Source: Escherichia coli (GTDB lineage: Bacteria; Pseudomonadota; Gammaproteobacteria; Enterobacterales; Enterobacteriaceae). Taken from it: DNA of 64,000 nucleotides. Positions 9,300 to 41,237 of this stretch are shown here, piece after piece. The notes under the pieces are model-generated. The model was not told where the DNA came from. It saw nothing but the letters and a program-made list of their open reading frames with translations, and made no database searches. Location of the stretch: assembly GCF_011045215.1 (NCBI RefSeq), contig NZ_CP049201.1; one strand, written 5' to 3'. Position 1 is the stretch's first letter; the number at the start of each line of letters is the position of its first letter. Made by a program: the position numbers and the translations under genes.

Positions 9300-11126
<1,827 letters not shown>

Positions 11127-13352: not shown

Positions 13353-13571
13353 CTATTTACGATAGTATCTTCGCATTTGTAGATAGAGTTGTAACCAAAT
13401 CCCAGCACCTCCCCATAAGCCAACTACTGCGCCAATTATTCCGTATTTTACATACACCTCAGAAGGTATTGGTTCCCGAGCTATAAACCAGATACTAACC
13501 ACTATTCCAATAGAGCAAGTAGCTATAGATATAAGTAACAACTTAATAAGAAGTAGTAGATGTTTTTTCAT
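13353..13571 (-). CDS. cdiI: CdiI immunity protein (72 aa, two TM helices)
   Basis: Start overlaps the cdiA stop (ATGA at 13568-13571); hydrophobic two-helix protein. Confidence 0.7.
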   Translation of the reverse strand: MKKHLLLLIKLLLISIATCSIGIVVSIWFIAREPIPSEVYVKYGIIGAVVGLWGGAGIWLQLYLQMRRYYRK

Positions 13572-22804: not shown

Positions 22805-22819
22805 TCTGATAAACCTGAC

Positions 22820-23347
22820 TTATCTCTCCGGCACATCCACAGCAAGCGGGTGCTGCACACGCCACTGGCGCGCCTCTTCACGACTGACCTGTGCACCCCG
22901 GAAATTCATCACCCGCAACCCGGTCTGCTGCCCACGGTGGTACAGCGAACGCCAGCACAGACGGGGAAAAATATCCTGCCGGACAAGACGACTCATATCC
23001 GGGGTATGTCCAAAAGGGGCAATCCAGTCACAGACCCACATCCGGTCGCCGCTGTTCCAGTCCGACTGAGGCATGAGAATTGCCGGCTGCGTAAGATAAC
23101 GCGCCTCTGCCTCCGGGCTGAGCCAGGCCTGGCTCATGAAGAAAACCGGTCGCCCCTGCTCTGTTGCCACCACATACTGTCGGTGCTTAATCACCGGCAG
23201 CAGCAGGTCCGGCAGGGTATGCAGTGGCGCATCACGATGCAGGGGGGAGTGCATCCACAACCAGACGGCCGCCCCCAGAACTTCCGCCTCATTGACCGGC
23301 TCACCGGAATACAGGGGACTCAGAACGTCATATTTCCCGTTACGCAT
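22820..23347 (-). CDS. cdiC: CdiC, HlyC-family toxin-activating lysine acyltransferase
   Basis: 175 aa; VWLWMHSPLHR and SGDRMWVCDWIAPFGH match HlyC/CyaC acyltransferase motifs; sits between cdiB and cdiA. Confidence 0.85.
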   Translation of the reverse strand: MRNGKYDVLSPLYSGEPVNEAEVLGAAVWLWMHSPLHRDAPLHTLPDLLLPVIKHRQYVVATEQGRPVFFMSQAWLSPEAEARYLTQPAILMPQSDWNSGDRMWVCDWIAPFGHTPDMSRLVRQDIFPRLCWRSLYHRGQQTGLRVMNFRGAQVSREEARQWRVQHPLAVDVPER

Positions 23348-23356
23348 GAAATTTTC

Positions 23357-26911: not shown

Positions 26912-27932
26912 AACTTTATCAGTCCATAAAAATCAACGGAAGCACAGATGATTCACTCGTCCATTACCAACGGATTTTGCCAATAACCCTGGCGTTGACA
27001 ACGGGTAACATAAAAGACAAAGACTGAACAACTGTTTTTAACGGCGATACTGCATGATTTCATCGCCATCCGTCACCGTCATATCCACCAGATGAAACAA
27101 CTCTGTGCAGGTTTTATCCGCAATTTCCGGATTATCAAAACACGTCGGTCAGTTCATGTTGTACGGGGACGGGCTGCGCTCCCCATGACAGAACATTATC
27201 GATATCACCAGCATACGTGCCACTCAAAGTGTTACGGCATCGTACGGCGTGGTCATGTTCTTCTCTTTTTCCTGTTCACAATAACCTGCTTAACGGTCAG
27301 AAGGCATTTTCACCAGGATTATATTCACCTGTACAACCATGTTCAGCCATGACCGCTGATAAGTGAACATCCGGAGTATATTATTCTGCCGCTGTTGAAT
27401 TGCCAGTAAGCTCCCGGTCCTTTGCTCCGGCACACTGTTTTTGTTCCTGGCTCTCTGTCTGAGGTGAAACCTTCCAGGTATGTCGCCCCATTTTTGTTCG
27501 TCTCCATTTTTTTAAGAAGTGCTCAAGTGAAAAACTTTTTACCTCTCCGGGAGTTGTCGTATTTGCTGATATTGTTCGTTTGTTTAAAGAACCTGCTGGT
27601 CTTGCCATTAATATTACCTGCTGATTGCTTCACGCCCGGGCTCCTCGCACTGTGCGCGGGTTATTGTTTCGTTTTCAGTCCCGGGGGCGCCAGGACTCTG
27701 TTTGCAGACCATAACGGCCTGACCTGTACTGTTTCTTCGGCTCTTTGATGCCCGTTTACGCCATTTGTTCCCTGCCCCTCTGTCTGATAACGAATACGCT
27801 CACTACGCACAGCACTGAACAATACCGGCAACAGCATGTCTTACATGACATTCGCTGTGCCATCCACCGGAAAACATTTTCAGATACCGGATGAGGTACC
27901 ACTTCCATTAACAGCACGAGGTAACAATACTG

Positions 27933-28409
27933 ATGGTAACGCTGGCCATTAACCGTAAACCGCAGGGTATTTTCAGTAAGTCACCGGCAACGCCGCTGCA
28001 GGATAAAACGAACACAGTACACAACGAGAAGCCTCTTCGGGTGAGGAATCAAACACCATGGCGACATATGACAAAACGCCAGCGCAAAAACCGTAAGCGT
28101 ATAAATCGTCTTGTGGAACTCTGGCCTGAGTTATTCAACCGGGAAAAACCAAAACCGCTTAAAGTGGGGATACCTGACGACCTGATACAGGATATCGCCA
28201 TCAGAAAACTGGCGTTTGGCGCAGGTACATTACGCGCGGCAGTGGCGTCTTATGTGCAGTCTCCGCGCTATTACCGTACGTTAATGGCAGGTGGCGCCCG
28301 TTACGACCTGAAGGGGCAACCGTGCGGAGAGGTGACACCACATGAACAGAAAGAGGCAGAGAGCCGTTTAATGATGCTGAATGACCGACGAAAAGCCAGA
28401 AAGCGCTGA
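27933..28409 (+). CDS. ProQ/FinO-family RNA-binding protein
   Basis: LVELWPELFN...KPLKVGIPDDL...YVQSPRYYRTL...ARYDLKGQPCGEVTPHEQKEAESRL aligns closely with the ProQ N-terminal FinO domain; true start may be an internal Met. Confidence 0.8.
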   Translation: MVTLAINRKPQGIFSKSPATPLQDKTNTVHNEKPLRVRNQTPWRHMTKRQRKNRKRINRLVELWPELFNREKPKPLKVGIPDDLIQDIAIRKLAFGAGTLRAAVASYVQSPRYYRTLMAGGARYDLKGQPCGEVTPHEQKEAESRLMMLNDRRKARKR

Positions 28410-28410
28410 T

Positions 28411-28959
28411 TCACTGAGCTGTAATCAATGTACAGCGCTGTACCGGACGATGGATAATGGCGGTCACAACCGGTAACCCCAGAGACAATGCGACTGTTTT
28501 TAACGCAACATACTGGCCGGATGTATCACCCCGGGCAACCCGAAAACACTTTTCCACCCGGCATTGTCCGCCAGCGCTTATCACCTGCCAGGTCTGTTGT
28601 AGTAAATCCACCAGTTGTGAACATTCTTCATCAACTGTCACACTGGCTCGCGGATGGCAAATGCTCGTCTGGCTGAGCAGCAACAGGCATCGCATTGTTG
28701 CTCCTCCATGTTGTTCCCGCAACCAGCGTAATACCAGCGGCGATGATGGACTGGCCGTGTGATTACGCTCAGTAATACGTTCGTGCACCTGTCGATAAAA
28801 GGAAGTACAGAATGTCTGAACCTGTTGTCCGTTGATGTTTCCTTCAGCCGAATGGAGCGTGAAGTGGACTGCCAGCAGACGCGGCCAGTGGTCCACCGCC
28901 TGCTGAACAAAACGCCGGATGTCTCCCGGCTCTGAAAGTAATACTTCGGTTATTTGCAC
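28411..28959 (-). CDS. hypothetical protein (182 aa)
   Basis: ORF convergent with the ProQ-like gene. Confidence 0.4.
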   Translation of the reverse strand: MQITEVLLSEPGDIRRFVQQAVDHWPRLLAVHFTLHSAEGNINGQQVQTFCTSFYRQVHERITERNHTASPSSPLVLRWLREQHGGATMRCLLLLSQTSICHPRASVTVDEECSQLVDLLQQTWQVISAGGQCRVEKCFRVARGDTSGQYVALKTVALSLGLPVVTAIIHRPVQRCTLITAQ

Positions 28960-29225
28960 GAAATGTTCCTTTTCGAATCCTGTTGAATTTTACTGATCCG
29001 GTACAGACACGCAGGAAAACACGCCTGCACCGGTGTAATGCCAGTTACAAACAATAAGAACGGAAGGACGAATCAGTCAGGAAATGATGACAAACCGTTC
29101 ACTGACCGGAGGATACCACCAGGAAGGTTAACGGGAGAGTAACCGGTACCAGGGACAGGGCCGGGTTCCACAATACCAGCGCCGGCATTTCGCACATTGC
29201 CAGCGTACCGGCATCCCAACACGTT

Positions 29226-29459
29226 TCATGCTGCTGACCCTCGTGATTCTTCGATTCGCTGCTGCATCCACTGCTCCACTTCGCTTTTGTACCAGCGGCT
29301 GCTGCGACCCAGTTTGATGGGTTTAGGAAAATGGCCTTCACTGATCAGCCTGTAAAACCATTTATCGGTCATGCCGGTGAAACTGGTGATGTAGTTCATG
29401 TCGATCAGGGGATCGTCGGCACGCAGCAACACGCTGTCGTGGCTTATTGTGGTCAACAT
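29226..29459 (-). CDS. alpA: AlpA-family phage/island transcriptional regulator
   Basis: ITSFTGMTDKWFYRLISEGHFPKPIKLGRSSRWYKSEVEQWM matches the AlpA HTH core. Confidence 0.7.
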   Translation of the reverse strand: MLTTISHDSVLLRADDPLIDMNYITSFTGMTDKWFYRLISEGHFPKPIKLGRSSRWYKSEVEQWMQQRIEESRGSAA

Positions 29460-29527
29460 GGTCAGAATATCCTCTGTAAGATTTATGAAGGTTGTGCGAA
29501 TGCGGGGAAAGATGCTGAGCCGTGTTT

Positions 29528-30133
29528 TCAGAACGGCCCTGCAGATCCGGGATACCCGGGATTACCGGCGAGGCAACGGGCTTCCGGATCGCACACATCA
29601 CGACGAGCGCGGGCGAAATCACTGAACGCCCAGATAAGGTCTTTAAACAGGGCTTCGCAGTCCGGTGACCGGCGATCCAGTACCACATCCCGGGTGATCT
29701 GCTTCTGGTACGGCTTTGCTTCACCTGGTGACGCGAAGCCCAGCACGTTACTCCAGGCATCCAGAATCAACCGATCCAGCTCAGGGCCATCGAAATACTC
29801 CTGTCTGACGCACAGCACCACGTGGTATTCCGGTTTTTCAGGATGACGGGTCAGGAGCCAGCAGAGGTCACGTCCGGGTGTTGCATTCATCAGCGCACTG
29901 ACGGTTTCGATAAAATCCATACCAAACCAGGTCTTTCTGCTGCTGAAGGTATTGTCATATTCACACGGCAGACGAAGCAGGATCCGCCGTATCCGGGAGC
30001 CGGACTGCTCACGCAGCGCACGCTCAAGGACACCGATAACTTTGCTCTGATAAGATGGCCAGAAAGGTGCCAGGCTATAGTCGAAATAAGGGATAGTATT
30101 CATAAGATATGCTCCGTTATGCGCAGCCCACAA
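29528..30133 (-). CDS. Inovirus Gp2-like / YfjJ-YagK family protein (putative HUH Rep-like)
   Basis: 201 aa; RILLRLPCEYDN and EYHVVLCV (HxH-like) motifs. Confidence 0.45.
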   Translation of the reverse strand: MWAAHNGAYLMNTIPYFDYSLAPFWPSYQSKVIGVLERALREQSGSRIRRILLRLPCEYDNTFSSRKTWFGMDFIETVSALMNATPGRDLCWLLTRHPEKPEYHVVLCVRQEYFDGPELDRLILDAWSNVLGFASPGEAKPYQKQITRDVVLDRRSPDCEALFKDLIWAFSDFARARRDVCDPEARCLAGNPGYPGSAGPF

Positions 30134-30360
30134 TGCGTCCTGCCCATGAATGAGCTGACGTGTTATAGCTTGCGGATGGGGTTGATGGAATAAGTGAAGA
30201 ACCGAAGCAGAACGGAAAGATCAGGTCACCGACAAGGGACAGAACACTGGATATGGTTCAGGGCGAATAATCTCCGTTGACTTCAGTTCACATCATTAAG
30301 CAAGGTGGTAAGGTTTTACCGACGGAATGTTTCCAGGACAGGAAGCTCAGGATTTAAGTT

Positions 30361-30927
30361 TCAGAAGTGAGGCTTACGAGGACGCCCTGCAGCAGGTCGT
30401 TCAGGAACTTCATTGCAGCCGTAGGCGCACAGCCCGTCTTTTTGTTCTTCTTTCGCCAGATAATGCAGGACACCGCGAATATTATCGATGCTCCCGGGAT
30501 CGTTATGACGCACGGGGATGTTGATGTTGTATGTATAATGCGGCTGATATGTACAACGGTGCACCGAACCGCTGTTATGCGTAATAGACCGCCAGCATTC
30601 CGTAATCCGCTCCGCAAAGGGATATACTTTTTTAACCCTCTGACGATCGATCCAGAAAACCGCATGCGCATGAAAACCATGATCAACCGTCCATTCAATC
30701 ACCCAGAAGAAGCCAACCATATTTTCAAATTGTTCCGCCTGCTCCAGCAGCATACGTAACTGTAATTCAAGCCAACGATGATCAGGTTGTAAGAAATCAG
30801 GCGTATCTTTCCTGTAGAAGAAATCCATGCGTAAGGCCCGCAGGCAGGAATAGCGTGCTATCATTTGATTGATGTGATTGTCAAATAAAGCGGTAAAAAA
30901 CCAGTTTGGTGTGTAAGATTTAGGCAT
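30361..30927 (-). CDS. Inovirus Gp2-like / YfjJ-YagK family protein, second paralogue
   Basis: 188 aa; LRMDFFYRKD and HGFHAHAVFW (HUH-like) motifs. Confidence 0.45.
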   Translation of the reverse strand: MPKSYTPNWFFTALFDNHINQMIARYSCLRALRMDFFYRKDTPDFLQPDHRWLELQLRMLLEQAEQFENMVGFFWVIEWTVDHGFHAHAVFWIDRQRVKKVYPFAERITECWRSITHNSGSVHRCTYQPHYTYNINIPVRHNDPGSIDNIRGVLHYLAKEEQKDGLCAYGCNEVPERPAAGRPRKPHF

Positions 30928-32516
30928 GCTGATGACTCCTGAAAGTTAATGACGTTTTAAGTGCTGTAAGCGAATTAATGCTTTCGCTCATAATCAGATC
31001 TAAAACGGTAATAACTTACAGACGGTATTTATCAGGCATGCTGTAACAGAATGGATACGTCGGTTATTAACGACACGCAACGTTGTGCTGAAGGGAATGG
31101 GTCATCTGATGGCATTGACTAAAGAAATGAGATAAACGAGGAGTAAAAAAATACAGATTCAATAAAACACAATGAAACACTGCAAAATACGCAATAAACC
31201 CCCACTACCAGGAGATTAAGAAACATATTACGACCAATAACATCATAAACTACAAACTTGCTCTCAGTGAGTCTGAAAAAACGTGTACAAGGCCAACACA
31301 TATCTGTAACCTGATAAAATCATACACTCTCATTTAATCTGTTAAAAACAACTCATGTTCAAGATATGAACGTTAACGGGTACACGGTACCAGAATGAAA
31401 CATACCATTGATGGATAATTTTCATTTTGTTTAACATAAAAGATAATCAGAAACGAACAGACATAATCAGGAATTCACCCTGTTAATTTCATTGTTTATC
31501 CTGCGCTGTTAAACATGACGGAATCATAGACACCTTATCAAAGAGTAAACATTCAGTTAATCAGTGATGACAGAAGAATTGATGTTCACCAGAATAGTTA
31601 AAACACTTCAGATAAACAATTATTGTTAAACAATGATAACGCATGACGGACAAGATTAAAATCAATTACTGTCTCACTGAACATGAGAACAGATGAATAT
31701 CTGTCAGTAGAATGGTAGAGAATACACCTGAATATCATATGAGTTACAATCGTCATGATTGAGATATGGATGGAGAGGATATTGTTATAATAGTGACAGT
31801 GAAGACTGGAGAAGGACATGAGTGAGTATAACTGGATGAAAATAATAGTAATGGAATGTGTAAAGATAGAGAGGAGAGATGAATGACAAAGATGGATAGA
31901 AAATAAAGAGACAGATATTAATTATAGTAATAAACCTAAATTAAAATTATCCATATCTGATGAGTAAAAATAAGAAATCCTACGTCCTGAATACAAGCCT
32001 AAGAAAAACATTCTCTTACAGAAAAAGATCAAATCGTTTTTCTTCAATCTCCCATTGAAACCTGAACAGCATCTCTTGCCAGTAACAGACTGATAACCAT
32101 TCATTATTCATAATAGAGACCAACATCGTCATATACGCCGGCACTCATCACGACAAGAATCAAAAAAAGTTATATATAAAAACTCACATAATATGGTTAT
32201 ATGATTAGCTTCAGACATGTTAAAAATAGCATTTCTGTTCACTTTCTTTTTATAAAAAACGAAAGCCATTCTTCCACCAGTGCGCACACTCCTGTATTCA
32301 ACCAACTCTGACAGCAGGTCATTATGAAAACAAAATCAAATCACATATATAGTGCATGTGCTGCTACTGTTGCTACCGTAGCGATTTTTTCAGAGAAATT
32401 TTCGTTCATGCCCCATAGATGGTGAACATTTGCACAGATGCGGGATATGCAAAACGCCTTACCACCAACCTTCGAATGAAGGTTGATTTTTTTCGTTTTA
32501 TCTGTGTTAGTTTATT

Positions 32517-34142
32517 TCAAAATAAGCCATGGGTTGAAAAAGGTAACGCAAATGGCGGAATTAATTCCGGTGGAATATTAACGTGATATGTTTTCGCATT
32601 ATGGCTATTCTCGGGTGGAATAATCTCAAATGATTCGTAAGACATTGCGCCAAAAGGAGGGATGCAACCATTATTATAACGAACAGAAACATAAAGTGTC
32701 TGATGCGTTCGCATTCTGATGATACATAAATACCCCTGACAGATTAACTGATTGAGCACAGGTGTAAGTTTTTCTGCTCTTCTCAGACGATTGGGACCAT
32801 ATCTTTCAATGTCTGTTTTCCTGATAGCACACCAGTTATTCTGTCTGATTCGGGTCATAATCCATGTATACAGCTCACGGCTATCCTGTTCAAACTGGCA
32901 TCGTTCAGACATGGGATAAAATATTGTGCTCGCTTCCTCCAGATACCAGTCCATGAGATGCATAGCTTTAAAAAGCGCAATTGATTCAATTTCCTCAGCA
33001 TCTTTATAGCAATAGCAGGTGAATAAACCCGCTATCCTCAGTATATTAGAACCTGCTTTCAGCACAATATCTCTGATGTGTTCCCACTCCCCTCCTGCAA
33101 GCGTTTTTCTTTCAATTTTAATCTGGTTTTCCTGCCACTCTCCCAACGCTTTCTTCGAAAGTTTTAATGTCTTCCTTTCGCTTCTCATTCCGGGGGAATT
33201 AATGCTATGGCTTGACAGAAACCCGTTAATCTTTTTATGAAACTCCACTAGGGTTGGTATTGTTACGAACTCGCCTTTCCTATAATCACGTACCCGGGAA
33301 GAGCCTCCAACCTGACTGTAAAGAAAACGGGAAAGAAATCCGCTTCCCCATGCCAGTACATCATTTTTATTTATATAATCCATAAAAACATTCGGCTGAG
33401 ACATTAATGAAAATGTCAGGCGTGGAGTAATATGATATTTTTCGTCTGCTCTCCCAAAATCAAACGGTTGTCCACTCCATGCTTTATTCAACAGACCCGG
33501 ATTATTTTTCAGATAGCTTCTGAAAAAAGTTACCGCTTCATCAGAAATAATCCCTGCCTCCAGATGTTCGTTGAGTCCTTCCGCAAGCGCTTTAAGCGAA
33601 ACATCTTCATAGATAAAATTCGGTCGAACCGGACGTGTCGGTTTATTTCTTTCGTGATTACGCAGTGCCTCTTCTTCCTGTTCCCCCGGATACCCCCGGT
33701 TAACAGCCTTTCTTAAATTGGCAGCAAGCGCTTTCTGCCGGGTATTCCAGATCTGTAGTTCAGTCTTATAATCTTTGTTTCTCTCTTCGTATTGTTGAAT
33801 GAGTCGATCAGCAAATTCGTAACAGGGGTTCATCACCAGTCTGTTTATCGTTGTTTTTCCCGCGCCTGGCTCTGCGATTGCCAACAGATAAAGTGAGCAG
33901 GGCTCCGGCATGTTGGTGTGAGGATGAACAACGTCAACCAATGACTGACAGGAGAGTGAGAGCGTTGCCAGTACAGTATTAAAAATGAGCTCCAGCGGAA
34001 GTTGGGTACTTTCATATAAGTCGTCAATAAGATATGCAAGCTCACTAGGAAATAATCTGTAGGTTAAATCAGTTGGGAAGTGGTGGGATGTCTGCAAGGA
34101 TTGCACATAATCGGGATTCATTGTAATGGACCTCCTTCGCAT
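32517..34142 (-). CDS. YfjI-like DUF3987 P-loop protein
   Basis: 541 aa; Walker A AEPGAGKTT. Confidence 0.5.
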   Translation of the reverse strand: MRRRSITMNPDYVQSLQTSHHFPTDLTYRLFPSELAYLIDDLYESTQLPLELIFNTVLATLSLSCQSLVDVVHPHTNMPEPCSLYLLAIAEPGAGKTTINRLVMNPCYEFADRLIQQYEERNKDYKTELQIWNTRQKALAANLRKAVNRGYPGEQEEEALRNHERNKPTRPVRPNFIYEDVSLKALAEGLNEHLEAGIISDEAVTFFRSYLKNNPGLLNKAWSGQPFDFGRADEKYHITPRLTFSLMSQPNVFMDYINKNDVLAWGSGFLSRFLYSQVGGSSRVRDYRKGEFVTIPTLVEFHKKINGFLSSHSINSPGMRSERKTLKLSKKALGEWQENQIKIERKTLAGGEWEHIRDIVLKAGSNILRIAGLFTCYCYKDAEEIESIALFKAMHLMDWYLEEASTIFYPMSERCQFEQDSRELYTWIMTRIRQNNWCAIRKTDIERYGPNRLRRAEKLTPVLNQLICQGYLCIIRMRTHQTLYVSVRYNNGCIPPFGAMSYESFEIIPPENSHNAKTYHVNIPPELIPPFALPFSTHGLF

Positions 34143-34558
34143 ACTGTAATCAACGCAAAACTTAACTGTTCAGTTCAGAAACATACCGACATCGTGAGTA
34201 TGTTCGCTAACGTCGATAATAAAATGGCTTGTATCCATTCACCAGTCCCGGCGCATTTATGATGCTGACAAAAGTAAAACAACATGTGTGCACCCAGAAG
34301 TCTGGCATCGCAGCGACAAATGATGGATGCATGAAAAACAGGGAACATTACGCACCAGAGCATTGAGAGTCTTCCCCCGTGCCCAATACGAAAGTCATCT
34401 CAATCCACCAGTCTTCACTCTCTGGGATGGTTGTTTTATGAACAGAGTAAAAGTTTGAAGCAAAGCTGAGAACCTCTGTTTCCACGTAAAGGTCCGCTAT
34501 GAAGAAAAATGGGAGTTTACATGCTCAACTGATTTACCTGTAGCTGCTTGTTACGTGG

Positions 34559-35557
34559 TTATTCAACAATCCCACAAATATCCTGCATCAGATTACGGGC
34601 TGTCTGGCTAATTCCGCCAAGCTGGAAAAAACCGTGAATGACACCGAGGTAACGCTGGGCGGTACAATTTACTCCTTGTTGAATCATACGGGAAAACAGT
34701 TCCTCACCTTCATCGCGTAATGGGTCATATTCCGCTGTGATGATATGAACAGGTGGTAACCCATTGAAATCATTCCTGAATAATGGACTGGCTTCCGGAT
34801 GTTCTAAATCCAGACCGGAAAAATAAGCCTCATAACCACTAAGAAACGTGTCTTCTGTCAGCACATAATCACTACCGTTTAATTTGTAACTATCGCATGA
34901 TGCTGTTGCATCCAGCATAGGGTAAATAAGTATTAATTTTCGTGGTAACCACTGACCGATGTTTTTCACCCTCAGTGCTGTTATCAGTGCAAGATGTCCC
35001 CCTGCGCTATCCCCCATTAACGTTATTCTGTTGCGATCAACTTTCAACATTTCTGCGTGTTGCCACACAATATTAGCGGCATGTTCAGCATCGTCATGTG
35101 CCGCAGGATAAATATGTTCCGGCGCTAATCGATATTGTACAGCAATGACACGACAGCCGCTCAGGAAAGCAAGCTGTCGCAACTGATTATCATGGGTTAC
35201 AAAACCACCACTGACAAAACAGCCACCATGATAATAGACAATTGTGGATGACTCCCCATCATCGTTTAACGGCGAAAATATACGCAATAAAACATCGTCA
35301 ATAATCACATCACTGATGTTTACACGGGTTTCTGTATCGCCGGCCAGAGCAGTACTTTCTATATATCCGGCACGGCGTTCATCAAAGGTCTGGTCACGAC
35401 TGGATGGACGACCAGCCGCAACAAACTCGTTTACAAGGTTCGCGATTTCCTGTTCAAGAGCCATACGAATCATTTCCGGACGATCATATTTAAACAATCC
35501 TCTTGGAAGTATAAATACGCTGCTCAAAAAATAAAAGATGAATAACCATAGTTTCAA
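34559..35557 (-). CDS. alpha/beta-hydrolase esterase/lipase (HSL family)
   Basis: HGGG-type YYHGGCF oxyanion motif and GDSAGG nucleophile elbow; true start probably an internal Met. Confidence 0.8.
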   Translation of the reverse strand: MKLWLFIFYFLSSVFILPRGLFKYDRPEMIRMALEQEIANLVNEFVAAGRPSSRDQTFDERRAGYIESTALAGDTETRVNISDVIIDDVLLRIFSPLNDDGESSTIVYYHGGCFVSGGFVTHDNQLRQLAFLSGCRVIAVQYRLAPEHIYPAAHDDAEHAANIVWQHAEMLKVDRNRITLMGDSAGGHLALITALRVKNIGQWLPRKLILIYPMLDATASCDSYKLNGSDYVLTEDTFLSGYEAYFSGLDLEHPEASPLFRNDFNGLPPVHIITAEYDPLRDEGEELFSRMIQQGVNCTAQRYLGVIHGFFQLGGISQTARNLMQDICGIVE

Positions 35558-35709
35558 CAGGTGTAATACTGGTACTTATGGTACATAGCAGCAATAAATT
35601 CTTTATTTTCCTGAATGTTAAGGAGGTTCCTGCTCTTAGGGACTTGCGGCAAGCGATACCCGGAACAGAATTATGTTTACGGTCTGGTTTGATATTGGAT
35701 TCAATATAA

Positions 35710-36162
35710 TTAAAGCGTTCTCAAAAGTCTGACCGGATTACCCGCATACACGCCTTTTACCAGCACAGGCTTTATAACCACACTACCAGCACCAATCACT
35801 GCTCCACTGCAAATTTCTGTTGTTAAAATGGTCGCTCCGCTACCCACTGTTACAGTGTTACCTAATACGATGCGTATCCAGCTTTCTGCAGAGGCATCGG
35901 GACCACCACACTTAAAAAGATCATTAGCAAAAGTTACGCCATGACCGATGAAACAGCCATCACCTAAAATGACGTTCTCACAGATGAAACTGTGGGACTG
36001 AATTCGGCTCCGGTTGCCAATGATACATCCCTTCTGTATTTCCACAAAGGGACCGATAAAAACATCATCCCCCAGTTCACATTCATAGAGGTTTACTGGC
36101 ATGACGACTTTCACATTTTCACCAAATTTCACATCACGAATGCGGCTGTCAATAACGTTCAT
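35710..36162 (-). CDS. hexapeptide-repeat (LbH) acetyltransferase
   Basis: 150 aa with repeated [LIV]G-x4 hexapeptide pattern. Confidence 0.75.
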   Translation of the reverse strand: MNVIDSRIRDVKFGENVKVVMPVNLYECELGDDVFIGPFVEIQKGCIIGNRSRIQSHSFICENVILGDGCFIGHGVTFANDLFKCGGPDASAESWIRIVLGNTVTVGSGATILTTEICSGAVIGAGSVVIKPVLVKGVYAGNPVRLLRTL

Positions 36163-36671
36163 ATCCGTTGTATCCTCCCTCAGGATGATTCTTATCAGAA
36201 CATTTCACCTGTCAGAATATTCCCGGTAATGTGATACAAGAGCCTGTCTCACCGGGTACCACGTGTTATTGCCCGTATCCTTTTGCCCGTTACGAGTGTA
36301 CAACCGGTTTTATATTTTGCAATCCAGGCCTGTTACACCAGAGCATCCTCTCACTGCCCCCTCACTGGTCAATCCGGGATTCAAAGTCATCCTCCAGCAC
36401 TAAACCCCATACCAGTCCTGAACCTTCCCTCGCCAGCAGCCAGACTCCTACTGTTCACCACAATCCTCTTCCGTGAATGGCCGTAAGTGCGCAGCACCAA
36501 AATAAATCGGTACTTCCGATGACAGACAGTGAAAGCGTCAGAGAAATATGAACATGAGAATGGAAGCAGATACATGACTTCAGGACGACTTTTTCAGAAA
36601 ACGAGCTAAGGGCGTCAGCCAACGACCTTACCGTGGTATACGCTCAGGCGCCGGATGCCGTTTTACCCGGT

Positions 36672-37412
36672 TCACCTGCCATCCAGCAAACGCCCCGGCC
36701 CACGACTGCAACCATAATTACGTTGCCCGGAACCGTCATGCTGCTTCGTCTCATATTTCACGAGATAACTGGCTCTGTTCCGAGCTTTCTGCATCGCTTC
36801 CACATCACCACGCTTGATCCAGAGAACAGCGGCTTCACCAGACTTTTTGTCTGAAGCCTTCCTGGTTTCAGAACATTCACCAGGCACAGGCGTATCATCG
36901 GAAGAAGGGCGAGCATCAGATGATGTCGGTTTACGGAAAGGCGTTGACAGCGTCCGCCTGGAAAAATGAACCAGTCCATTACCCTGCCAAGGCTCAAGAT
37001 GCAGAGCACTGCACCATGCCAGTTGGATCAGCGTCGCCAGCGAAGAAGGAACGGTGAAATCCCCTGGCGAGCACCAGGTATCTTTGTTGAGCAGTAATAT
37101 CACGTGATAATGTTTCCTGCCTTTTTCCTTGCCAAACTCCCGACACCAGAAATAACGCAGAGTGGTTGCGCGCACACGCTTGTTGGCACGTCGTTTTTTC
37201 CGCTGGTAAGCCTGAATTTTTGCTTTCAGGGATTCGAAAAAACGAGAAATCACCGCTGAATCTAAATCGGTATCCATGATGGTGGCAGGCATATACTCAG
37301 GAAAACGTAAATCCACCCGAATTAACGAGACGGCACGGTGTTGCGCCAGGGCACTGTTGAGAATGCTTTCAAAACGGGATAACCAGTAAGCATTGTGTAT
37401 TGGTTGATTCAT
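36672..37412 (-). CDS. Inovirus Gp2-like / YfjJ-YagK family protein, third paralogue
   Basis: 246 aa; SLIRVDLRFPEY and HYHVILLLNKD (HUH-like). Confidence 0.45.
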   Translation of the reverse strand: MNQPIHNAYWLSRFESILNSALAQHRAVSLIRVDLRFPEYMPATIMDTDLDSAVISRFFESLKAKIQAYQRKKRRANKRVRATTLRYFWCREFGKEKGRKHYHVILLLNKDTWCSPGDFTVPSSLATLIQLAWCSALHLEPWQGNGLVHFSRRTLSTPFRKPTSSDARPSSDDTPVPGECSETRKASDKKSGEAAVLWIKRGDVEAMQKARNRASYLVKYETKQHDGSGQRNYGCSRGPGRLLDGR

Positions 37413-38289
37413 GATGAGAGATCTCCGTTGATTTGGATTGACTTCACATCATTAATCACTGTGGTAAAACTTTACGGCATCCCGCCATTGAGCAACGCCA
37501 ATGGCTCCTGATTAAAACAGAATGAATCCCCCACGAAGAAAAGATAAACCTACACGCAGAGTGAAACACACAACAACGGCATAAATGGTTTTTAAAAACT
37601 ACAAAGCCTGAAGGGAAACGGATCAACAAAACGTGCAAACAAAACGTCAGAAACGCAATCAGAACGCTTTCTGGCTCTGTAAATCAACAACAACACCAAA
37701 ACCTACAGCTTAACCACACAACTCAATCACAGAGCCGAATAGCGCGCTTAAAACCTGTTTACAGATAACCCCGCCACAAGAACAAAAACCACCAATATCA
37801 GAATCGATTTTCTTATCCTGAAAACGTTACTTTTCAACACACCATAAAAACGATTAACCATCAATAACGTAAATCTCATCTGAATCAAAACACCAGAACC
37901 AATCATCACGCTTTTCCTGAAAAGAGCCTTATGATGAAGATAATCACCTTGCGCTGAGAAAAAACACCAGGGCCAGTTAATCATCTCATCAATCTCATTG
38001 CTACAAAATCATCTATAAAACCATTTAACAAAATCATCGTAAGCACACAGTAAATCACGCCAGGTTATCTCAGCCGGATTTGCGTTTTACATAAAAACAC
38101 TTGTCTCAGGTTAACGACTAAAAACACGAAAACTCATAAAAGGTTAAATGTAACATCAGTAAAATCGAATAGCATATTGACTGCTTAAACAGGACAGGGA
38201 GTTTTGTAGTGACGTTAACTGATTTTAGTTAGCGTAAAGATTTACTAAACTGGATGTGTTTCAGACAAAGCAATGTGTATAACAATGCT

Positions 38290-38415
38290 TAATGAAAACA
38301 CTTGTAGAATTGTTTATGAAAACACGTGCATGTCTGGTAAAACACTTAGTAGAAAATACGTGTATAACACTTACTGAAATGCTTAGTAAAAATACTGAGT
38401 AAAATACGTGTATAT
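38290..38415. repeat. Degenerate direct-repeat (iteron-like) array
   Basis: Five or more copies of GAAAA(C/T)AC(T/G)T(G/A)(T/C)A spaced about 15-25 bp apart (38294, 38317, 38337, 38352, 38400) in an ORF-free AT-rich region. Confidence 0.4.
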
Positions 38416-39378
38416 AGTATCATACCGACATTCTCAACATCTTCAGACATCCATGCAGACTGAGTGTTGATTTCAGTTTTTCACGGCCAGCATGGATCTT
38501 TACTGGTCAAAAAACAGACAGATTTACTCTGGAATTATTTTTCCAGGCCTCCCTGAAAAGACCATCCGGAGCACCCCGTTCGTCAGCTTCCATGTTGTCT
38601 TTTACCCCCGGAAAGTGATCGCATTTTCCAGCCAGAATGACAGCCATACTGATTATGACGTCTCTCCGGCCCCTTCACATATAACATTCATGTCAGTCAT
38701 TTCTACTGTCTCACTCACCGAAATTCTCCATGCCGGATGAAGCAATTGTTCTGAACTGAGCAGAAGCATAACAGCACACACAAGGAAACGACTGTGCCAT
38801 AGATCCCGGAATCAGGATCTTAATGTCAGGAAAACAGTGACGACCGGGGATAACTAACAACAACCTGAGTACAGAAGAAAGCTTTCCCGCGCACGCCACC
38901 ATCTTATGTAAGAGGATATGATGCCCCCACCTCAGAAGAACCGTCTCCGGGAGAACTTCACTGCATCAAAAATCCTTTTGCTGAGTTCTCATTCCCCATC
39001 ATGGCAGCTACAGACATGCCCTGACAGAGCGTATGCGCATTGAGAGAAATAACCATAAATGATGAGAAGACACTCTATATGACGACAGCATGTTGAGGTA
39101 TAAAAAATATTCATCTAAATATTTTAAGAATATTTTTTATTGCAAATTACATGAAATAACATGATGTCAATATAATTTTGTCAAATGCGTGAGATTAATC
39201 ACATTGTAATTTTATGTATTTTTATGTAAATAAGAGAAAATGATCCATGAGCGTTATTGCATTTTTTCTGATGTATGGATAAAAGGGGGATTCAGGCAAA
39301 ATTTACTGACAGAGGAGATGATAAGAGGGGGTTAAAGAGTTCTATAGAGTTGGTTGTGCATTTATACCCAGGGAGTTC

Positions 39379-40233
39379 ATGTCTGTGCATTCACCAGATG
39401 AATCTGCTCATGTTTTTAGTAGGATGGAATATGAATATCACCGACATAACGATAAATTACGTTCTGTTAATGCTGATAATGCAGGCAGAGACGTTGTTCC
39501 GGAGTGGGTGCAAAAAGACCCTGTAGCCGCATTCTGGGTATGGATGTTTATATATCATGTTCCTGACAGTATTGTCCGACTCTCAGGTGAGCGATATGCA
39601 GATTACGGAACTTCCTGTCTGTATTCCAGACTGTTCGCTGCTGAAGCACTTCCGGTTGAGCATCAGGCAAGGATTAGTGTGACGAGAAAATGGCTACAGG
39701 AACTTAAAAGGCTAACCGGAACAGAAAATGTATCTGACTTCTTGTATGCCGTTCATTTTTTATGGTCATATGCTGAAAAAGTGAACCCCATGACATGGCT
39801 TGGTTCCCGGCGGATACATATCAAATGGGCATGGGCGTATCTGCAGAAACATTGCACTGACGAAGAACGTCACTGTCCTGATATTTCAGAATTTAAAGCT
39901 TCAGGGGAGTCCCGTCTGTTCATAATAGCTTATGTGCGCTGTGTCTTCATGAAAATCTATTCTGTCGGTACTGAACCTCAAAAGTTAAAAGAATTAGTTC
40001 ATCAGCAGAATGATTTTCTCAGGCGCATGAAGTGCTCATACCAGAAAATGTTCCGGTATGAGAAAACCGATTCCCGGGTACAGATAAGTGCCCTGATTTC
40101 TCCGGAAGCCAGGAATGCACTCCGGAAAATGGCAAAAAAGAATAATCTGACTCAGGCTGAAATACTGGATAAACTCATCTTATCAGCTGATCGTCTGTTT
40201 ATGCAGAAAACAACCGGGGATTATTCCCGTTAA
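39379..40233 (+). CDS. hypothetical protein (284 aa) with a possible C-terminal ribbon-helix-helix-like segment
   Basis: ORF only; C-terminal EARNALRKMAKKNNLTQAEILDKLI. Confidence 0.4.
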   Translation: MSVHSPDESAHVFSRMEYEYHRHNDKLRSVNADNAGRDVVPEWVQKDPVAAFWVWMFIYHVPDSIVRLSGERYADYGTSCLYSRLFAAEALPVEHQARISVTRKWLQELKRLTGTENVSDFLYAVHFLWSYAEKVNPMTWLGSRRIHIKWAWAYLQKHCTDEERHCPDISEFKASGESRLFIIAYVRCVFMKIYSVGTEPQKLKELVHQQNDFLRRMKCSYQKMFRYEKTDSRVQISALISPEARNALRKMAKKNNLTQAEILDKLILSADRLFMQKTTGDYSR

Positions 40234-41237
40234 TGAGTTCCACCAGAACCGTTTTTCTTTTTGCTGCTGTTTTTGCGTTTATGCTGTTCGTACCTTTCTT
40301 TTGACGTACAAAGGAATCTTCCATAAACATTGCGGATATATGAGTTGATACACTCCAGCATTCTCTCTTTTCGTGATTTCCCTTTTTCCTTCGAATCTTC
40401 ACTTTGAACATTAATGTTCATCAGTTCTTTTATAAACTTATCCAGATTTTCCATGTCATAAAGCAGCATGAAAAACATCACATTTCCCAGTGATTCCAGT
40501 AACTGAGATTCAACCCTGTACCCATATTTTCTGAAACTTAGCCCTGTTAAAAACTGTTCAAACATTACCCCTGATTCAAAAAGAGATTTTAATCCCAGTC
40601 GCTTATATTCCAGGTAAAAAAGTTCAAACGTCGGGGATGCTGAACGGCAAATAAACGAAGACAGCGCCCATGGATCAAAATATGTAACACGCTTCCCCTC
40701 CCGCACTTCCTGCGGTGTCAGCGGCGGTTCAGCAAACCAGGCGTCCAGCTCAGCCGAATCGCTGTCCCTGCTCAAAACCTCATACAAACTGCCCGTGAAC
40801 GGTTGAGGCGGATTTTTGGTTGCTTCATCTTCTGATTGTCTGGATTGTCTGAATCCGTCCACTTTTCTCCGGATATTACGCGGGATCAGCATAAAAGGCG
40901 GGACATTAAGTGATAAATGTTTACCCGTCATGCGATACCATTGCCCCACCTCAACCTTAATCCGTGTATCTGGCCTTAGCTCAAGTGCTATTATGTTAAG
41001 CAGGTACAGATAACGCACCGTATAACAGTCAAAATGTTTCTCCGGATCAAACGGCTCTGACCCTTCTCTGCACACGAGTCCTCTGCGCTTCAGTATTCGC
41101 TGGGTATCTTTCCAGGCCTTACTCTGAAGAATGGTGGTAACTCTGGCCTTATTAACAATATCACGCAGTGCATCACCTTGTTGTGCCGTCATCCAACACC
41201 TCCCGCACTCTGTCACTCCAGATTTTTTCACGCCCAT
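40230..41237 (-). CDS. hypothetical protein (335 aa)
   Basis: ORF convergent with 39379-40233, 3' ends overlap by 4 bp; lysine-rich C-terminus. Confidence 0.4.
   Translation of the reverse strand: MGVKKSGVTECGRCWMTAQQGDALRDIVNKARVTTILQSKAWKDTQRILKRRGLVCREGSEPFDPEKHFDCYTVRYLYLLNIIALELRPDTRIKVEVGQWYRMTGKHLSLNVPPFMLIPRNIRRKVDGFRQSRQSEDEATKNPPQPFTGSLYEVLSRDSDSAELDAWFAEPPLTPQEVREGKRVTYFDPWALSSFICRSASPTFELFYLEYKRLGLKSLFESGVMFEQFLTGLSFRKYGYRVESQLLESLGNVMFFMLLYDMENLDKFIKELMNINVQSEDSKEKGKSRKERMLECINSYIRNVYGRFLCTSKERYEQHKRKNSSKKKNGSGGTH

What the first reader, a model, noticed from the sequence alone, without database searches (positions are those of the whole stretch)
29528..37412. Three paralogous inovirus-Gp2/YfjJ-type HUH Rep-like genes in one island
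ORFs at 29528-30133, 30361-30927 and 36672-37412 each carry an N-terminal R-x-D-L-R/F-x-P-like motif and an HxH-type motif (EYHVVL, HAHAVF, HYHVIL). This suggests relaxase/replication-initiator ancestry. Three copies on the same strand suggests fusion of several CP4-type elements or repeated internal duplication.
Basis: partly seen in the sequence, partly recalled or inferred. Interest (0 to 1): 0.4.

Follow-up and report, generated by a model that had tools for sequence, protein, structure and literature searches.

The report
Four diverged YfjJ-type Rep-like genes
An E. coli genomic island carries four (not three) very old, highly diverged copies of a replication-initiator-like gene family; only two still have the residues needed to cut DNA, and the whole arrangement is a common backbone of such islands, not a peculiarity of this genome.

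Summary
The three ORFs exist as described, all on the minus strand, and the quoted peptides are present. Only ORF3 (36672-37412) passes Pfam thresholds (YagK_YfjJ_C 7e-37; REP_ORF2-G2P 2.7e-10). ORF2 (30361-30927) is sub-threshold but its relatives carry both domains. ORF1 (29528-30103) has no database annotation.

Profile-profile comparison links each family to the ORF3/YfjJ family (E about 1e-6 to 1e-9; reversed controls 0.015 or worse).

Catalytic signature:
- ORF3 and ORF2 keep HUH plus YxxK.
- ORF1 has E-Y-H, with Asp in place of the Tyr.
- ORF4 has neither motif.

Both degenerate copies are still under purifying selection (dN/dS 0.10 and 0.32).

The genes are not recent duplicates, since pairwise BLASTP is not significant. 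The block ORF3...YfjI-ORF2-ORF1-AlpA-ORF4 occurs in about a third of complete E. coli genomes. Paired arrangements around alpA recur in Serratia and in further assemblies whose organism I did not identify.

Most likely this is an excision/replication backbone module: AlpA, a DUF3987 helicase, two active Rep-like nickases and two non-catalytic paralogs. Function is inferred, not shown. This is an ordinary, mostly annotated feature. The modest novelty is ORF1's assignment to the family and the two pseudo-enzyme copies.

The parts
36672..37412 (-). ORF3, 246 aa: canonical YagK/YfjJ ('inovirus Gp2 family') protein. It has an intact motif I (R32-V-D34), HUH (H101-Y-H103) and YxxK (Y216..K219). It carries a ~50-aa Ser/Pro/Asp-rich insertion relative to its 190-200-aa relatives.
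   Evidence: Pfam PF11726 7e-37 and PF23343 2.7e-10. PHROG replication-initiation families, best 2e-7. Alignments. RefSeq calls its E. coli homologues 'inovirus Gp2 family protein'.
30361..30927 (-). ORF2, 188 aa: short-type Rep-like paralog with intact R33-x-D35, H86-A-H88 and Y156-L-A-K159. It lies directly downstream of yfjI.
   Evidence: Pfam sub-threshold: PF23343 22.9 bits against a 27.8 cut-off, and PF11726 18.9 against 25.8. Homologues at 50-60% identity carry PF11726/PF23343 and are named inovirus-type Gp2 or rolling-circle replication-associated protein. hhalign to the ORF3 family: 85-90% probability, E 2e-6 to 6e-6 over 161-166 columns including both motifs. Catalytic columns conserved in 9/9 family members.
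29528..30103 (-). HUH is E92-Y-H94, the motif-I Asp is Leu42, the Tyr position is Asp162, and Lys is replaced by Arg165. It sits immediately upstream of alpA.
28411..28959 (-). It belongs to the UCP030791 (PF27752) family and has the YagK/YfjJ-like fold, but neither HUH (T88-M-R90) nor Tyr/Lys (S159, L162). It lies immediately downstream of alpA.
   Evidence: hhalign to the ORF3 family: 96-97% probability, E 1.9e-10 to 1.9e-9. The ORF4-family HMM hits ORF3 at 2.5e-6. An intermediate Serratia protein (L005) hits both HMMs, 1.6e-43 and 4.4e-16. Precomputed Pfam on relatives: PF27752 plus PF11726. RefSeq names some copies 'YagK/YfjJ domain-containing protein'. AF2 pLDDT 91.6. dN/dS 0.32.
29226..29459 (-). 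alpA-type small HTH regulator/excisionase-like gene, lying between ORF1 and ORF4.
   Evidence: Pfam Phage_AlpA 1.2e-10. It is the only copy in the window. It is syntenic with YfjJ-type genes in all related loci.
32517..34142 (-). yfjI-type DUF3987 protein (541 aa), a putative replicative helicase, directly upstream of ORF2.
   Evidence: Pfam DUF3987 4.4e-73. PHROG 'DNA helicase' 1.9e-42. A PriCT-DUF3987 protein has been shown to be a 5'-3' helicase (PMC11724360).
27933..28409 (+). ProQ/FinO-domain gene, convergent with ORF4 and abutting it. It is part of the conserved block.
   Evidence: Pfam ProQ 3.7e-23. The same neighbour is present in E. coli relatives.
37421..37475 (-). A ~55-nt element immediately upstream of ORF3, ending in the Shine-Dalgarno sequence and ATG. 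A second copy lies upstream of ORF1.
   Evidence: Repeat family D1. blastn 41/55 identical, E 2e-6. Conserved in the L001 E. coli island at both positions.
30270..30319 (-). Second copy of the ~55-nt element, in the ORF2-ORF1 spacer. The position equivalent to ORF3's ATG reads CTG here, and ORF1's actual ATG lies ~160 nt further downstream.
38236..38422 (+). Conserved non-coding stretch containing an iteron-like array of AAAAYACNT repeats, all in one orientation, ~900 bp upstream of ORF3. It is a candidate cis site (origin or operator); its function is unknown.
   Evidence: Repeats; sequence. 20 matches in the window against 6.1 expected, five of them within 38295-38409. The array is also present in L001. 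88-100% identity to L019, whose upstream region overall is only 80% identical.
34559..36162 (-). Variable cargo inserted between ORF3 and yfjI: an alpha/beta hydrolase and a hexapeptide acyltransferase. It is absent from most related E. coli islands.
   Evidence: Pfam Abhydrolase_3 and Hexapep. Most E. coli matches cover only ~75% of 27000-38000.

Best explanation
The region carries four ancient, strongly diverged paralogs of the YagK/YfjJ ('inovirus Gp2-type') HUH-fold Rep-like family. They are embedded in the conserved backbone of an AlpA/YfjI-type (CP4-57-like) genomic island whose right end abuts the setC-yicL-nlpA genes.

ORF3 and ORF2 retain the complete Rep-class signature: R-x-D on strand 1, the HUH metal site, and a C-terminal YxxK nucleophile.

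Inferred mechanism: after AlpA-promoted excision, one or both of these proteins nick a specific site on the circular island. Together with the adjacent DUF3987 helicase YfjI they then drive rolling-circle-type replication, or possibly single-strand mobilisation.

ORF1 (E-Y-H, with Asp for Tyr) and ORF4 (no HUH, no Tyr) keep the fold and are under purifying selection, but they cannot form the covalent Tyr-DNA intermediate. They are inferred to be non-catalytic DNA-binding or regulatory partners.

The multiplicity is old and is the normal architecture of this island family, not a recent event in this genome.

Basis: homology, motif status, selection and synteny are shown here. Nicking, replication and the roles of ORF1 and ORF4 are inferred.
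For: Family membership:
- ORF3 passes Pfam.
- PHROG replication-initiation hits for ORF3 and a DNA-helicase hit for YfjI.
- hhalign shows a star topology with the ORF3 family as hub: ORF2 1.8e-6, ORF1 3.3e-6, ORF4 1.9e-9. Twelve reversed controls all score 0.015 or worse.
- Cross-family HMM hits through intermediate sequences.

Catalytic columns: R/D/H/H/Y/K are conserved in 13/13 ORF3-type and 9/9 ORF2-type sequences. They read E/H/D/R in 6/6 ORF1-type sequences and are not conserved in ORF4-type.

Fold: the ORF1 model's top matches are HUH nickases.

Selection: dN/dS is 0.10 (ORF1), 0.15 (ORF2), 0.32 (ORF4) and 0.38 (ORF3).

Synteny:
- ORF3-type -> AlpA (-> Zn-ribbon genes -> ORF4-type) in loci L007-L012.
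- AlpA -> ORF2-type -> ... -> ORF4-type in L002-L006 (L005/L006 hold the Serratia protein P0105).
- alpA -> yfjI -> yfjJ in K-12.

Prevalence in 5,426 complete E. coli genomes: ORF1 2,514 places, ORF3 2,513, ORF2 1,954, ORF4 4,034.

Literature: DUF3987 helicase activity (PMC11724360). A Gp2-like gene is a core gene of intY/alpA islands in Pseudomonas (bioRxiv 10.1101/2024.08.29.610337).
Against: - No experiment on any YagK/YfjJ protein was found; the literature lists them as of unknown function.
- No origin or nick site has been identified. The iteron-like array and the 55-nt element are only candidates.
- The profile-profile probabilities for ORF1 and ORF2 are 85-90%, not >95%, and the ORF1 family alignment is very shallow (Neff 1.2).
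- Both AF2 alignments included YfjJ-family rows, so the models are not independent of the hypothesis.
- Many database copies of ORF1 and ORF3 are frameshifted. This suggests the module is often decaying.
- No PDB relative is detectable by sequence.
Confidence: 0.6

Rival explanations
1. Composite island. The multiple copies exist because two or three CP4-type elements, each with its own YfjJ-type gene, fused or accreted in tandem. For example, [ORF3 ...] + [yfjI-ORF2] + [ORF1-alpA-ORF4].
For: Other elements usually carry one or two paralogs, and an ORF3-type gene normally sits directly upstream of alpA. That is the slot ORF1 occupies here. ORF1 and ORF3 share a 55-nt upstream element, as if two copies of one module start were present. 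Variable cargo sits between ORF3 and yfjI.
Against: There is only one alpA and one yfjI, with no remnants of others detectable by tblastn. I found no tRNA and no integrase among the window ORFs I scanned, and none of the repeats found in 26.9-41.4 kb looked like an attachment site. ORF1 and ORF3 occur at practically identical numbers of places in E. coli (2,514 vs 2,513), so the block behaves as one unit. If a fusion happened it is ancient and not specific to this window. This rival is compatible with the main explanation.
Confidence: 0.25
2. Recent internal tandem duplication of one Rep-like gene within this island.
For: Same strand and similar lengths.
Against: Pairwise BLASTP is not significant: best E 0.04 over 48 residues, the others above 0.5. 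Identity in the merged alignment is 9-21%. Each paralog has its own orthologous family, and the ORF2, ORF3 and ORF4 families extend to other enterobacterial genera.
Confidence: 0.02
3. ORF1 is not a family member at all. Its EYHVVL/RILLRLP resemblance and weak profile hits are chance, and it is an unrelated small island protein.
For: No curated library recognises it: Pfam 12.1 bits, E 0.18. The family is narrow (E. coli in every source name given) and nearly invariant, so the profile is weak. hhalign probability is only 88-90%. The key catalytic residues are absent.
Against: The hhalign E of about 2e-6 over 114-120 columns is in register with all secondary-structure elements, against 0.015 or worse for controls. 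The reciprocal hit of K-12 YfjJ. The positional equivalence with YfjJ-type genes upstream of alpA. The upstream element shared with ORF3. The invariant Trp117 of the superfamily. HUH-type top fold matches.
Confidence: 0.1
4. The family no longer works in DNA nicking or replication in these islands. All four are domesticated DNA/RNA-binding regulators, or interference factors. For example, they might act against ssDNA phages or competing elements, or work with the adjacent ProQ/FinO protein.
For: Two of the four have lost the active site yet are conserved. The islands are mostly regarded as cryptic. A ProQ/FinO gene is a fixed neighbour. The islands are rich in defence cargo.
Against: HUH and YxxK are strictly conserved in the ORF2 and ORF3 types across genera, which is hard to explain without catalysis. 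There is linkage to a helicase gene. No PADLOC model matches.
Confidence: 0.2

Closest known systems
E. coli K-12 YfjJ (CP4-57) and YagK (CP4-6); Pfam PF11726 YagK_YfjJ_C (formerly Inovirus_Gp2 / DUF3296)
   Same: ORF3 is a full-length member (7e-37), and K-12 YfjJ scores 1.2e-57 against the ORF3-family HMM. The island context is the same: alpA, yfjI/DUF3987, then the GTPase/DUF932/antirestriction/RadC block.
   Different: ORF3 carries a ~50-aa disordered insertion. In K-12 the order is alpA-yfjI-yfjJ with a single copy. Here four paralogs surround one alpA and one yfjI. ORF2, ORF1 and ORF4 are separate, far more diverged subfamilies.
Replication initiators G2P/ORF2 of filamentous ssDNA phages (Pfam PF23343 REP_ORF2-G2P) and other phage 'replication initiation' PHROGs
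   Same: The core is shared around the HUH strand. ORF3 scores 40.9 bits against a 27.8 cut-off, and E 2e-7 to 2e-4 against PHROGs 3584, 942, 2969 and 713. The motif order is that of the Rep class (HUH, then Tyr).
   Different: The proteins here are only 180-250 aa, i.e. a nuclease-domain-sized protein. They are encoded in an AlpA-type island with no filamentous-phage genes seen among the ORFs examined. The matches cover only ~50-60 residues.
HUH nickase/origin-binding domains with solved structures: bocavirus, B19 and MVM NS1, AAV5 Rep, SIRV1 ORF119
Pfam PF27752 UCP030791 (uncharacterised conserved protein family)
   Same: ORF4's relatives carry this domain in precomputed annotations.
   Different: The family has no assigned function. 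Here it is shown to be a HUH-less and Tyr-less branch of the YagK/YfjJ fold. It is typically found a few genes downstream of alpA and of a catalytically intact paralog.
'Inovirus Gp2-like' core gene of the intY/alpA/RadC genomic islands of Pseudomonas (bioRxiv 10.1101/2024.08.29.610337)
   Same: A Gp2-like gene is listed there together with alpA, RadC and an HTH protein as likely core element functions.
   Different: That study concerns a different genus and integrase, and it gives no analysis of paralog number or catalytic status. The islands there move by jumbo-phage transduction, which has not been shown for this island.

Membership tests
YagK/YfjJ (PF11726) / REP_ORF2-G2P (PF23343) | Score above Pfam's curated gathering cut-off | tested here: inconclusive
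   ORF3 meets it: 127.4 bits against 25.8, and 40.9 against 27.8. ORF2 does not: 18.9 against 25.8, and 22.9 against 27.8. ORF1 does not: 12.1 bits. ORF4 has no hit in the local Pfam copy. Relatives of ORF2 and ORF4 carry precomputed PF11726/PF23343 hits.
YagK/YfjJ (PF11726) / REP_ORF2-G2P (PF23343) | Detectable homology to bona fide members by profile-profile comparison | tested here: met
   hhalign against the ORF3/YfjJ family: ORF2 family 85-90% probability (E 1.8e-6 to 6e-6), ORF1 family 88-90% (1.6e-6 to 3.3e-6), ORF4 family 96-97% (1.9e-10 to 1.9e-9). Reversed controls score 0.015 or worse. The non-hub pairs (ORF1-ORF2, ORF1-ORF4, ORF2-ORF4) are not directly detectable.
HUH endonuclease superfamily, Rep class (as an active enzyme) | HUH metal-binding motif (His-hydrophobic-His) on the central strand | tested here: inconclusive
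   Met in ORF3 (H101-Y-H103) and ORF2 (H86-A-H88). Partial in ORF1 (E92-Y-H94, invariant in 6/6 sequences). Not met in ORF4 (T88-M-R90, and this column is variable across the family).
HUH endonuclease superfamily, Rep class (as an active enzyme) | Catalytic Tyr in a helix C-terminal to HUH (YxxK) | tested here: inconclusive
   Met in ORF3 (Y216..K219) and ORF2 (Y156..K159); conserved in 13/13 and 9/9 family members. Not met in ORF1 (D162..R165, and there is no Tyr anywhere in that helix). Not met in ORF4 (S159..L162).
HUH endonuclease superfamily, Rep class (as an active enzyme) | HUH-nuclease fold (five-stranded antiparallel sheet with flanking helices) | tested here: inconclusive
HUH endonuclease superfamily, Rep class (as an active enzyme) | Site-specific ssDNA nicking with a covalent 5'-phosphotyrosine intermediate at a cognate origin | not testable with these tools
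   No biochemical data were found for any YagK/YfjJ protein. No origin has been identified. Candidate cis elements lie at 38236-38422 and at 37421-37475 / 30270-30319.
Conjugative/mobilisation relaxases (MOB families) | Catalytic Tyr N-terminal to the His-rich motif, plus a linked oriT and coupling functions | tested here: not met
   In ORF2 and ORF3 the Tyr lies C-terminal to HUH, which is the Rep-class order. The order rule itself comes from established knowledge of the HUH superfamily. No relaxase, T4CP or T4SS domain was seen among the window ORFs scanned.
Filamentous phage (inovirus) prophage | Gp2 replication gene together with inovirus morphogenesis and coat genes | tested here: not met
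   The neighbours are alpA, a DUF3987 helicase, ProQ/FinO, cargo enzymes, and a GTPase/DUF932/antirestriction/RadC block. No phage structural or morphogenesis family was found among the ORFs scanned. Not every small ORF was scanned.
CP4-57/CP4-6-type integrative island backbone | alpA + yfjI (DUF3987) + yfjJ-type gene, with a distal GTPase-DUF932-antirestriction-RadC block, inserted at a tRNA/tmRNA locus | tested here: met
   All the backbone genes are present; compare K-12 CP4-57. The right end abuts setC-yicL-nlpA, which is 99.9% identical to E. coli core sequence. The integrase and the tRNA lie outside the window, so the attachment site itself was not seen.

The most novel reading that the evidence does not exclude
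These islands may encode a Rep/pseudo-Rep system. Two HUH-fold paralogs have lost the nucleophile Tyr and part or all of the metal site: ORF1, and ORF4 (= UCP030791). They are nevertheless kept under purifying selection in fixed positions flanking alpA. They would act as dedicated non-catalytic partners of the two intact Rep-like nickases and the YfjI helicase, for example as origin-recognition subunits, repressors or antagonists that gate replication of the excised island. Their target might be the conserved iteron-like array ~900 bp upstream of ORF3.
Probability: 0.3. Interest if true: 0.5.

Novelty: new member of a known kind. Interest (0 to 1): 0.3.

Why it matters
YagK/YfjJ-type genes are among the most common unexplained genes of E. 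coli islands. Each of the four paralogs occurs in 29-50% of complete genomes, sometimes in several copies, and K-12 YfjJ and YagK are still listed as function unknown.

Three results make the question experimentally tractable:
- The backbone carries two catalytically intact and two catalytically dead HUH-fold paralogs next to a helicase and AlpA.
- A widespread 'hypothetical protein' (ORF1) is assigned to the family.
- Candidate cis sites are identified.

The question is whether these so-called cryptic islands replicate or mobilise after excision, and how.

As a discovery it is modest. The family and the island type are known, and most of the copies are already annotated.

Tried and rejected
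Searches that found nothing or too little:
- Pairwise BLASTP among the three ORFs: no significant similarity, so direct comparison cannot settle paralogy.
- NCBIfam: nothing for any of the four.
- PADLOC: nothing for the four, YfjI or the neighbours, so there is no support for a known defence system.
- Rfam at gathering and at E <= 1: nothing credible.
- PDB sequence search with the ORF3-family profile: no hit even at E <= 10.
- AlphaFold-database fold search: the library was unavailable.

Tests of the fusion idea:
- tblastn for second copies or remnants of alpA, yfjI or the paralogs in the window: none.
- tRNA scan: none in the window.

Sequence features that did not hold up:
- Promoter and terminator consensus scans were not above shuffled expectation.
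- A GTAAA-N4-TTACC palindrome pattern did not capture the shared element and was not above chance. On reading the sequence, the arms are only 4-5 bp, so I do not claim an operator.
- Exact-word search for the 55-nt element in distant loci found it only in the E. coli relative L001.

Other dead ends:
- Extra context look-ups for distant ORF4 relatives gave contigs too short to read (L014, L015) or a decayed remnant (L016/L017).
- The O104:H4 copy is a truncated remnant beside microcin cargo.
- Literature searches for YfjJ, YagK, Inovirus_Gp2, DUF3296, PF11726 and UCP030791 found only annotation-level mentions.

Full report
**Observation**

For the first, homologues and RefSeq annotation start at the ATG at 30103, giving 191 aa. 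I call them ORF1, ORF2 and ORF3.

The quoted peptides are real: EYHVVL, HAHAVF and HYHVIL. The N-terminal motif is RVDLRFP in ORF3, RMDFFYR in ORF2 and RILLRLP in ORF1. ORF1 therefore lacks both the Asp and the first His.

**Context**

- The right part of the window is E. coli core DNA (setC-yicL-nlpA), 99.9% identical to strain PapM-32-1.
- Everything to the left of about 48.1 kb is island DNA. It is about 90% identical to the best E. coli relatives.
- There is no tRNA in the window and no integrase among the ORFs I scanned.
- Reading along the minus strand, the local gene order is: ORF3, a hexapeptide acyltransferase, an alpha/beta hydrolase, YfjI (DUF3987, 4.4e-73), ORF2, ORF1, AlpA (1.2e-10), and a 182-aa ORF at 28411-28959 (ORF4). 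A convergent ProQ/FinO gene follows.
- To the right, on the plus strand, lies the usual GTPase / DUF932 / antirestriction / RadC / DUF4942 block of CP4-type islands.
- K-12 CP4-57 has intA, yfjH, alpA, yfjI and yfjJ.

**Family membership**

- At Pfam's curated thresholds only ORF3 is a member (YagK_YfjJ_C 7e-37; REP_ORF2-G2P 2.7e-10).
- ORF2 is sub-threshold on both models.
- ORF1 has a 12-bit, E 0.18 hit.
- ORF4 has no hit.
- NCBIfam and PADLOC recognise none of the four.
- PHROGs links ORF3 to four 'replication initiation' families (best E 2e-7) and YfjI to a DNA helicase family (1.9e-42).
- Pairwise BLASTP among the three ORFs is not significant.

I collected homologues for each ORF:

- ORF2 has a broad enterobacterial family. 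Many members carry PF11726/PF23343 and are named inovirus-type Gp2 or rolling-circle replication-associated protein.
- ORF3 is a typical 'inovirus Gp2 family protein'.
- ORF1 has only close relatives. Every source name given is E. coli, and all are annotated 'hypothetical protein'.
- ORF4 has relatives down to about 25% identity. Precomputed annotation places them in PF27752 (UCP030791), in several cases together with a weak PF11726 hit.

Profile-profile comparison gives a star topology with the ORF3/YfjJ family at the centre:

| Family compared with ORF3 family | Probability | E-value |
|---|---|---|
| ORF2 family | 85-90% | 1.8e-6 to 6e-6 |
| ORF1 family | 88-90% | 1.6e-6 to 3.3e-6 |
| ORF4 family | 96-97% | 1.9e-10 to 1.9e-9 |

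Twelve reversed-sequence controls gave E of 0.015 or worse. The non-hub pairs are not directly detectable.

Independent links:

- The ORF3-family HMM ranks ORF2 and ORF1 second and third among 704 window ORFs, and the ORF4-family HMM hits ORF3 at 2.5e-6.
- A Serratia ORF4-type protein hits both the ORF4-family HMM (1.6e-43) and the ORF3-family HMM (4.4e-16). An ORF3-type protein from locus L010 hits the ORF4-family HMM at 1.2e-13. K-12 YfjJ hits the ORF1-family HMM at 0.001.

There are thus four paralogs, not three. No further copies were found in the window.

**Catalytic status**

In a merged alignment I read the columns equivalent to ORF3's R32, D34, H101, H103, W133, Y216 and K219.

| Subfamily | Motif I (R-x-D) | HUH | Y..K |
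|---|---|---|---|
| ORF3-type (13/13) | R, D kept | H-U-H kept | Y, K kept |
| ORF2-type (9/9) | R, D kept | H-U-H kept | Y, K kept |
| ORF1 family (6/6) | R40, L42 | E92-Y-H94 | D162, R165 |
| ORF4 family | not conserved | not conserved (window: T88-M-R90) | not conserved (window: S159, L162) |

The Trp is kept in the ORF3, ORF2 and ORF1 types and in 11 of 13 ORF4-type sequences, where it is the only one of these residues conserved. In ORF1 there is no Tyr anywhere in the helix that normally carries the nucleophile.

HUH preceding YxxK is the Rep-class order, not the relaxase order. That rule comes from established knowledge of the HUH superfamily.

**Structure**

- AlphaFold2 of ORF1, using the merged alignment, gives pLDDT 73.5 and pTM 0.74 with a beta-alpha-beta-beta-alpha-beta-beta-alpha layout.
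- In BFVD, every named hit is a parvoviral NS1 or a microvirus/rudivirus replication protein (E 6e-5 to 2e-3).
- Both AF2 input alignments contained YfjJ-type rows, so the models are not fully independent evidence.

**Selection and prevalence**

Against the ~90%-identical E. coli island L001, dN/dS is 0.10 for ORF1, 0.15 for ORF2, 0.32 for ORF4 and 0.38 for ORF3. For comparison, AlpA is 0.06 and YfjI 0.30. The degenerate copies are therefore maintained genes, not pseudogenes.

Among 5,426 complete E. coli genomes:

| Gene | Genomes | Places |
|---|---|---|
| ORF1 | 1,885 | 2,514 |
| ORF3 | 1,878 | 2,513 |
| ORF2 | 1,570 | 1,954 |
| ORF4 | 2,735 | 4,034 |

The near-equal counts for ORF1 and ORF3 indicate a fixed block.

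**Synteny elsewhere**

- Loci L007-L012 (organisms not identified): ORF3-type -> AlpA, with or without two Zn-ribbon genes followed by an ORF4-type gene.
- Loci L002-L006 (L005/L006 hold the Serratia protein P0105): AlpA -> ORF2-type -> small genes -> ORF4-type.
- K-12: alpA -> yfjI -> yfjJ (ORF3-type).

ORF1 therefore sits in the slot normally held by an ORF3-type gene, just upstream of alpA. ORF4 sits in the normal UCP030791 slot downstream of alpA.

**Origin of the multiplicity**

Recent duplication is excluded by the divergence.

An old accretion of modules is possible:

- The window has more paralogs than the other architectures.
- ORF1 and ORF3 share a ~55-nt upstream element (41/55 identical, E 2e-6). 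At ORF3 it runs into the Shine-Dalgarno sequence and the ATG.
- Variable cargo separates ORF3 from yfjI.

Against a simple fusion:

- There is only one alpA and one yfjI, with no remnants of others.
- No repeat found in 26.9-41.4 kb looked like an internal attachment site.
- The block is a stable unit across E. coli.

**Mechanism (inferred)**

AlpA-type regulators trigger int/xis expression and excision in CP4-57; this is established knowledge. DUF3987 proteins are helicases: a PriCT-DUF3987 protein unwinds DNA 5'->3' (PMC11724360).

The most economical reading is a post-excision replication or mobilisation module. In it, ORF2 and/or ORF3 nick the circular island and YfjI unwinds it. ORF1 and ORF4 cannot form the phosphotyrosine intermediate, so they would act as non-catalytic DNA-binding or regulatory partners.

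No origin is known. One candidate is a conserved non-coding stretch at 38236-38422:

- It carries five to eight same-orientation AAAAYACNT repeats. The window holds 20 matches against 6.1 expected, with five inside 115 bp.
- It is also present in L001.
- It is 88-100% identical to L019, whose flanking non-coding DNA is only about 80% identical overall.

**Literature**

YfjJ and YagK remain uncharacterised, and 'inovirus Gp2 family proteins' of pheU/pheV/selC islands are listed as function unknown. A Gp2-like gene is noted as a likely core function of intY/alpA islands in Pseudomonas.

**Verdict**

The Rep-like ancestry is supported. The duplication idea is rejected and the fusion idea is unproven. 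The feature is a common, largely annotated island backbone. The modest novelty is the assignment of ORF1 to the family and the recognition of conserved pseudo-enzyme paralogs.

Noticed in passing
window 37421-37475 and 30270-30319: A ~55-nt element (GTAAA..TTACCAC..TGATTAATGATGTGAA..TCAACGGAGAT) is shared upstream of ORF3 and ORF1, although the two proteins are about 18% identical in the merged alignment. At ORF3 it ends in the Shine-Dalgarno sequence and the ATG. At ORF1 the equivalent ATG reads CTG, and the real start lies ~160 nt further on. The element is also present at both positions in E. coli island L001.
   Followed up: partly
window 38236-38422 (also 38094, 38121): An iteron-like array of same-orientation AAAAYACNT repeats lies in a 2-kb ORF-poor region ~900 bp upstream of ORF3. 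It is a conservation island: 88-100% identical to L019, where the surrounding non-coding DNA is about 80% identical. The first ~1.1 kb upstream of ORF3 is conserved and mostly unannotated in about 1,876 E. coli genomes. It could be an origin, an operator array or an unannotated RNA.
   Followed up: partly
window 36672-37412 (ORF3 residues ~150-200): The E. coli ORF3 clade has a ~50-aa Ser/Pro/Asp-rich, probably disordered insertion between the sheet and the Tyr helix, which is absent from the 190-200-aa relatives in other genera. Many database copies are 214-aa frameshift variants that lose the Tyr motif. ORF3 has the highest dN/dS of the four (0.38).
   Followed up: partly
window 30928-32516: A 1.6-kb AT-rich (GC about 0.40, positive AT skew) stretch between yfjI and ORF2 has no ORF over 73 aa. 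It is also unannotated in the E. coli relative L001. It contains many short inverted repeats but no clear iterons.
   Followed up: partly
window 27933-28409 (+) and 28411-28959 (-): A ProQ/FinO-domain gene is convergent with ORF4, with only one base between the two stop codons. The same pairing occurs in related E. coli islands. An RNA-chaperone-like protein as a fixed neighbour of a pseudo-Rep is unexplained.
   Followed up: no
window 13568-25096: A contact-dependent-inhibition-type two-partner secretion locus with high GC (0.55-0.58). It comprises a ShlB/FhaC-type transporter (579 aa), an HlyC-like acyltransferase (175 aa), and a 3,078-aa TPS/FHA-repeat protein with a PT-VENN pre-toxin domain.
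   Followed up: partly
window 4349-7030 and 9300-11126: Two helicase genes that look like defence cargo. One is an 893-aa AAA_11/AAA_12 helicase with C-terminal DUF2726, whose best PADLOC hit is MkoA (5.5e-44). The other is a NERD+UvrD protein matching PADLOC candidate C3a187 (2.7e-141). Between them lies an orphan T6SS ImpA_N/VasL gene (7657-8874) and beside them an Ail/Lom porin (11223-11798). A Tn5-like transposase lies at 1497-2912.
   Followed up: no
window ~48100-51900: The island's right boundary abuts setC-yicL-nlpA. From my own knowledge of K-12 gene order (not checked here), that is the neighbourhood of the selC tRNA gene. These core genes are 99.9% identical to E. coli PapM-32-1, while the island backbone is only about 90% identical to its best E. 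coli match. This is a diverged variant of a common island type.
   Followed up: partly
window 39379-40233 (+) and 40230-41237 (-): Two sizeable ORFs (284 and 335 aa) lie between the non-coding region and the GTPase gene. They have no Pfam or PADLOC hits and only marginal PHROG hits. Comparable 320-365-aa unannotated genes occupy this position in distant islands (L002, L007, L010).
   Followed up: no
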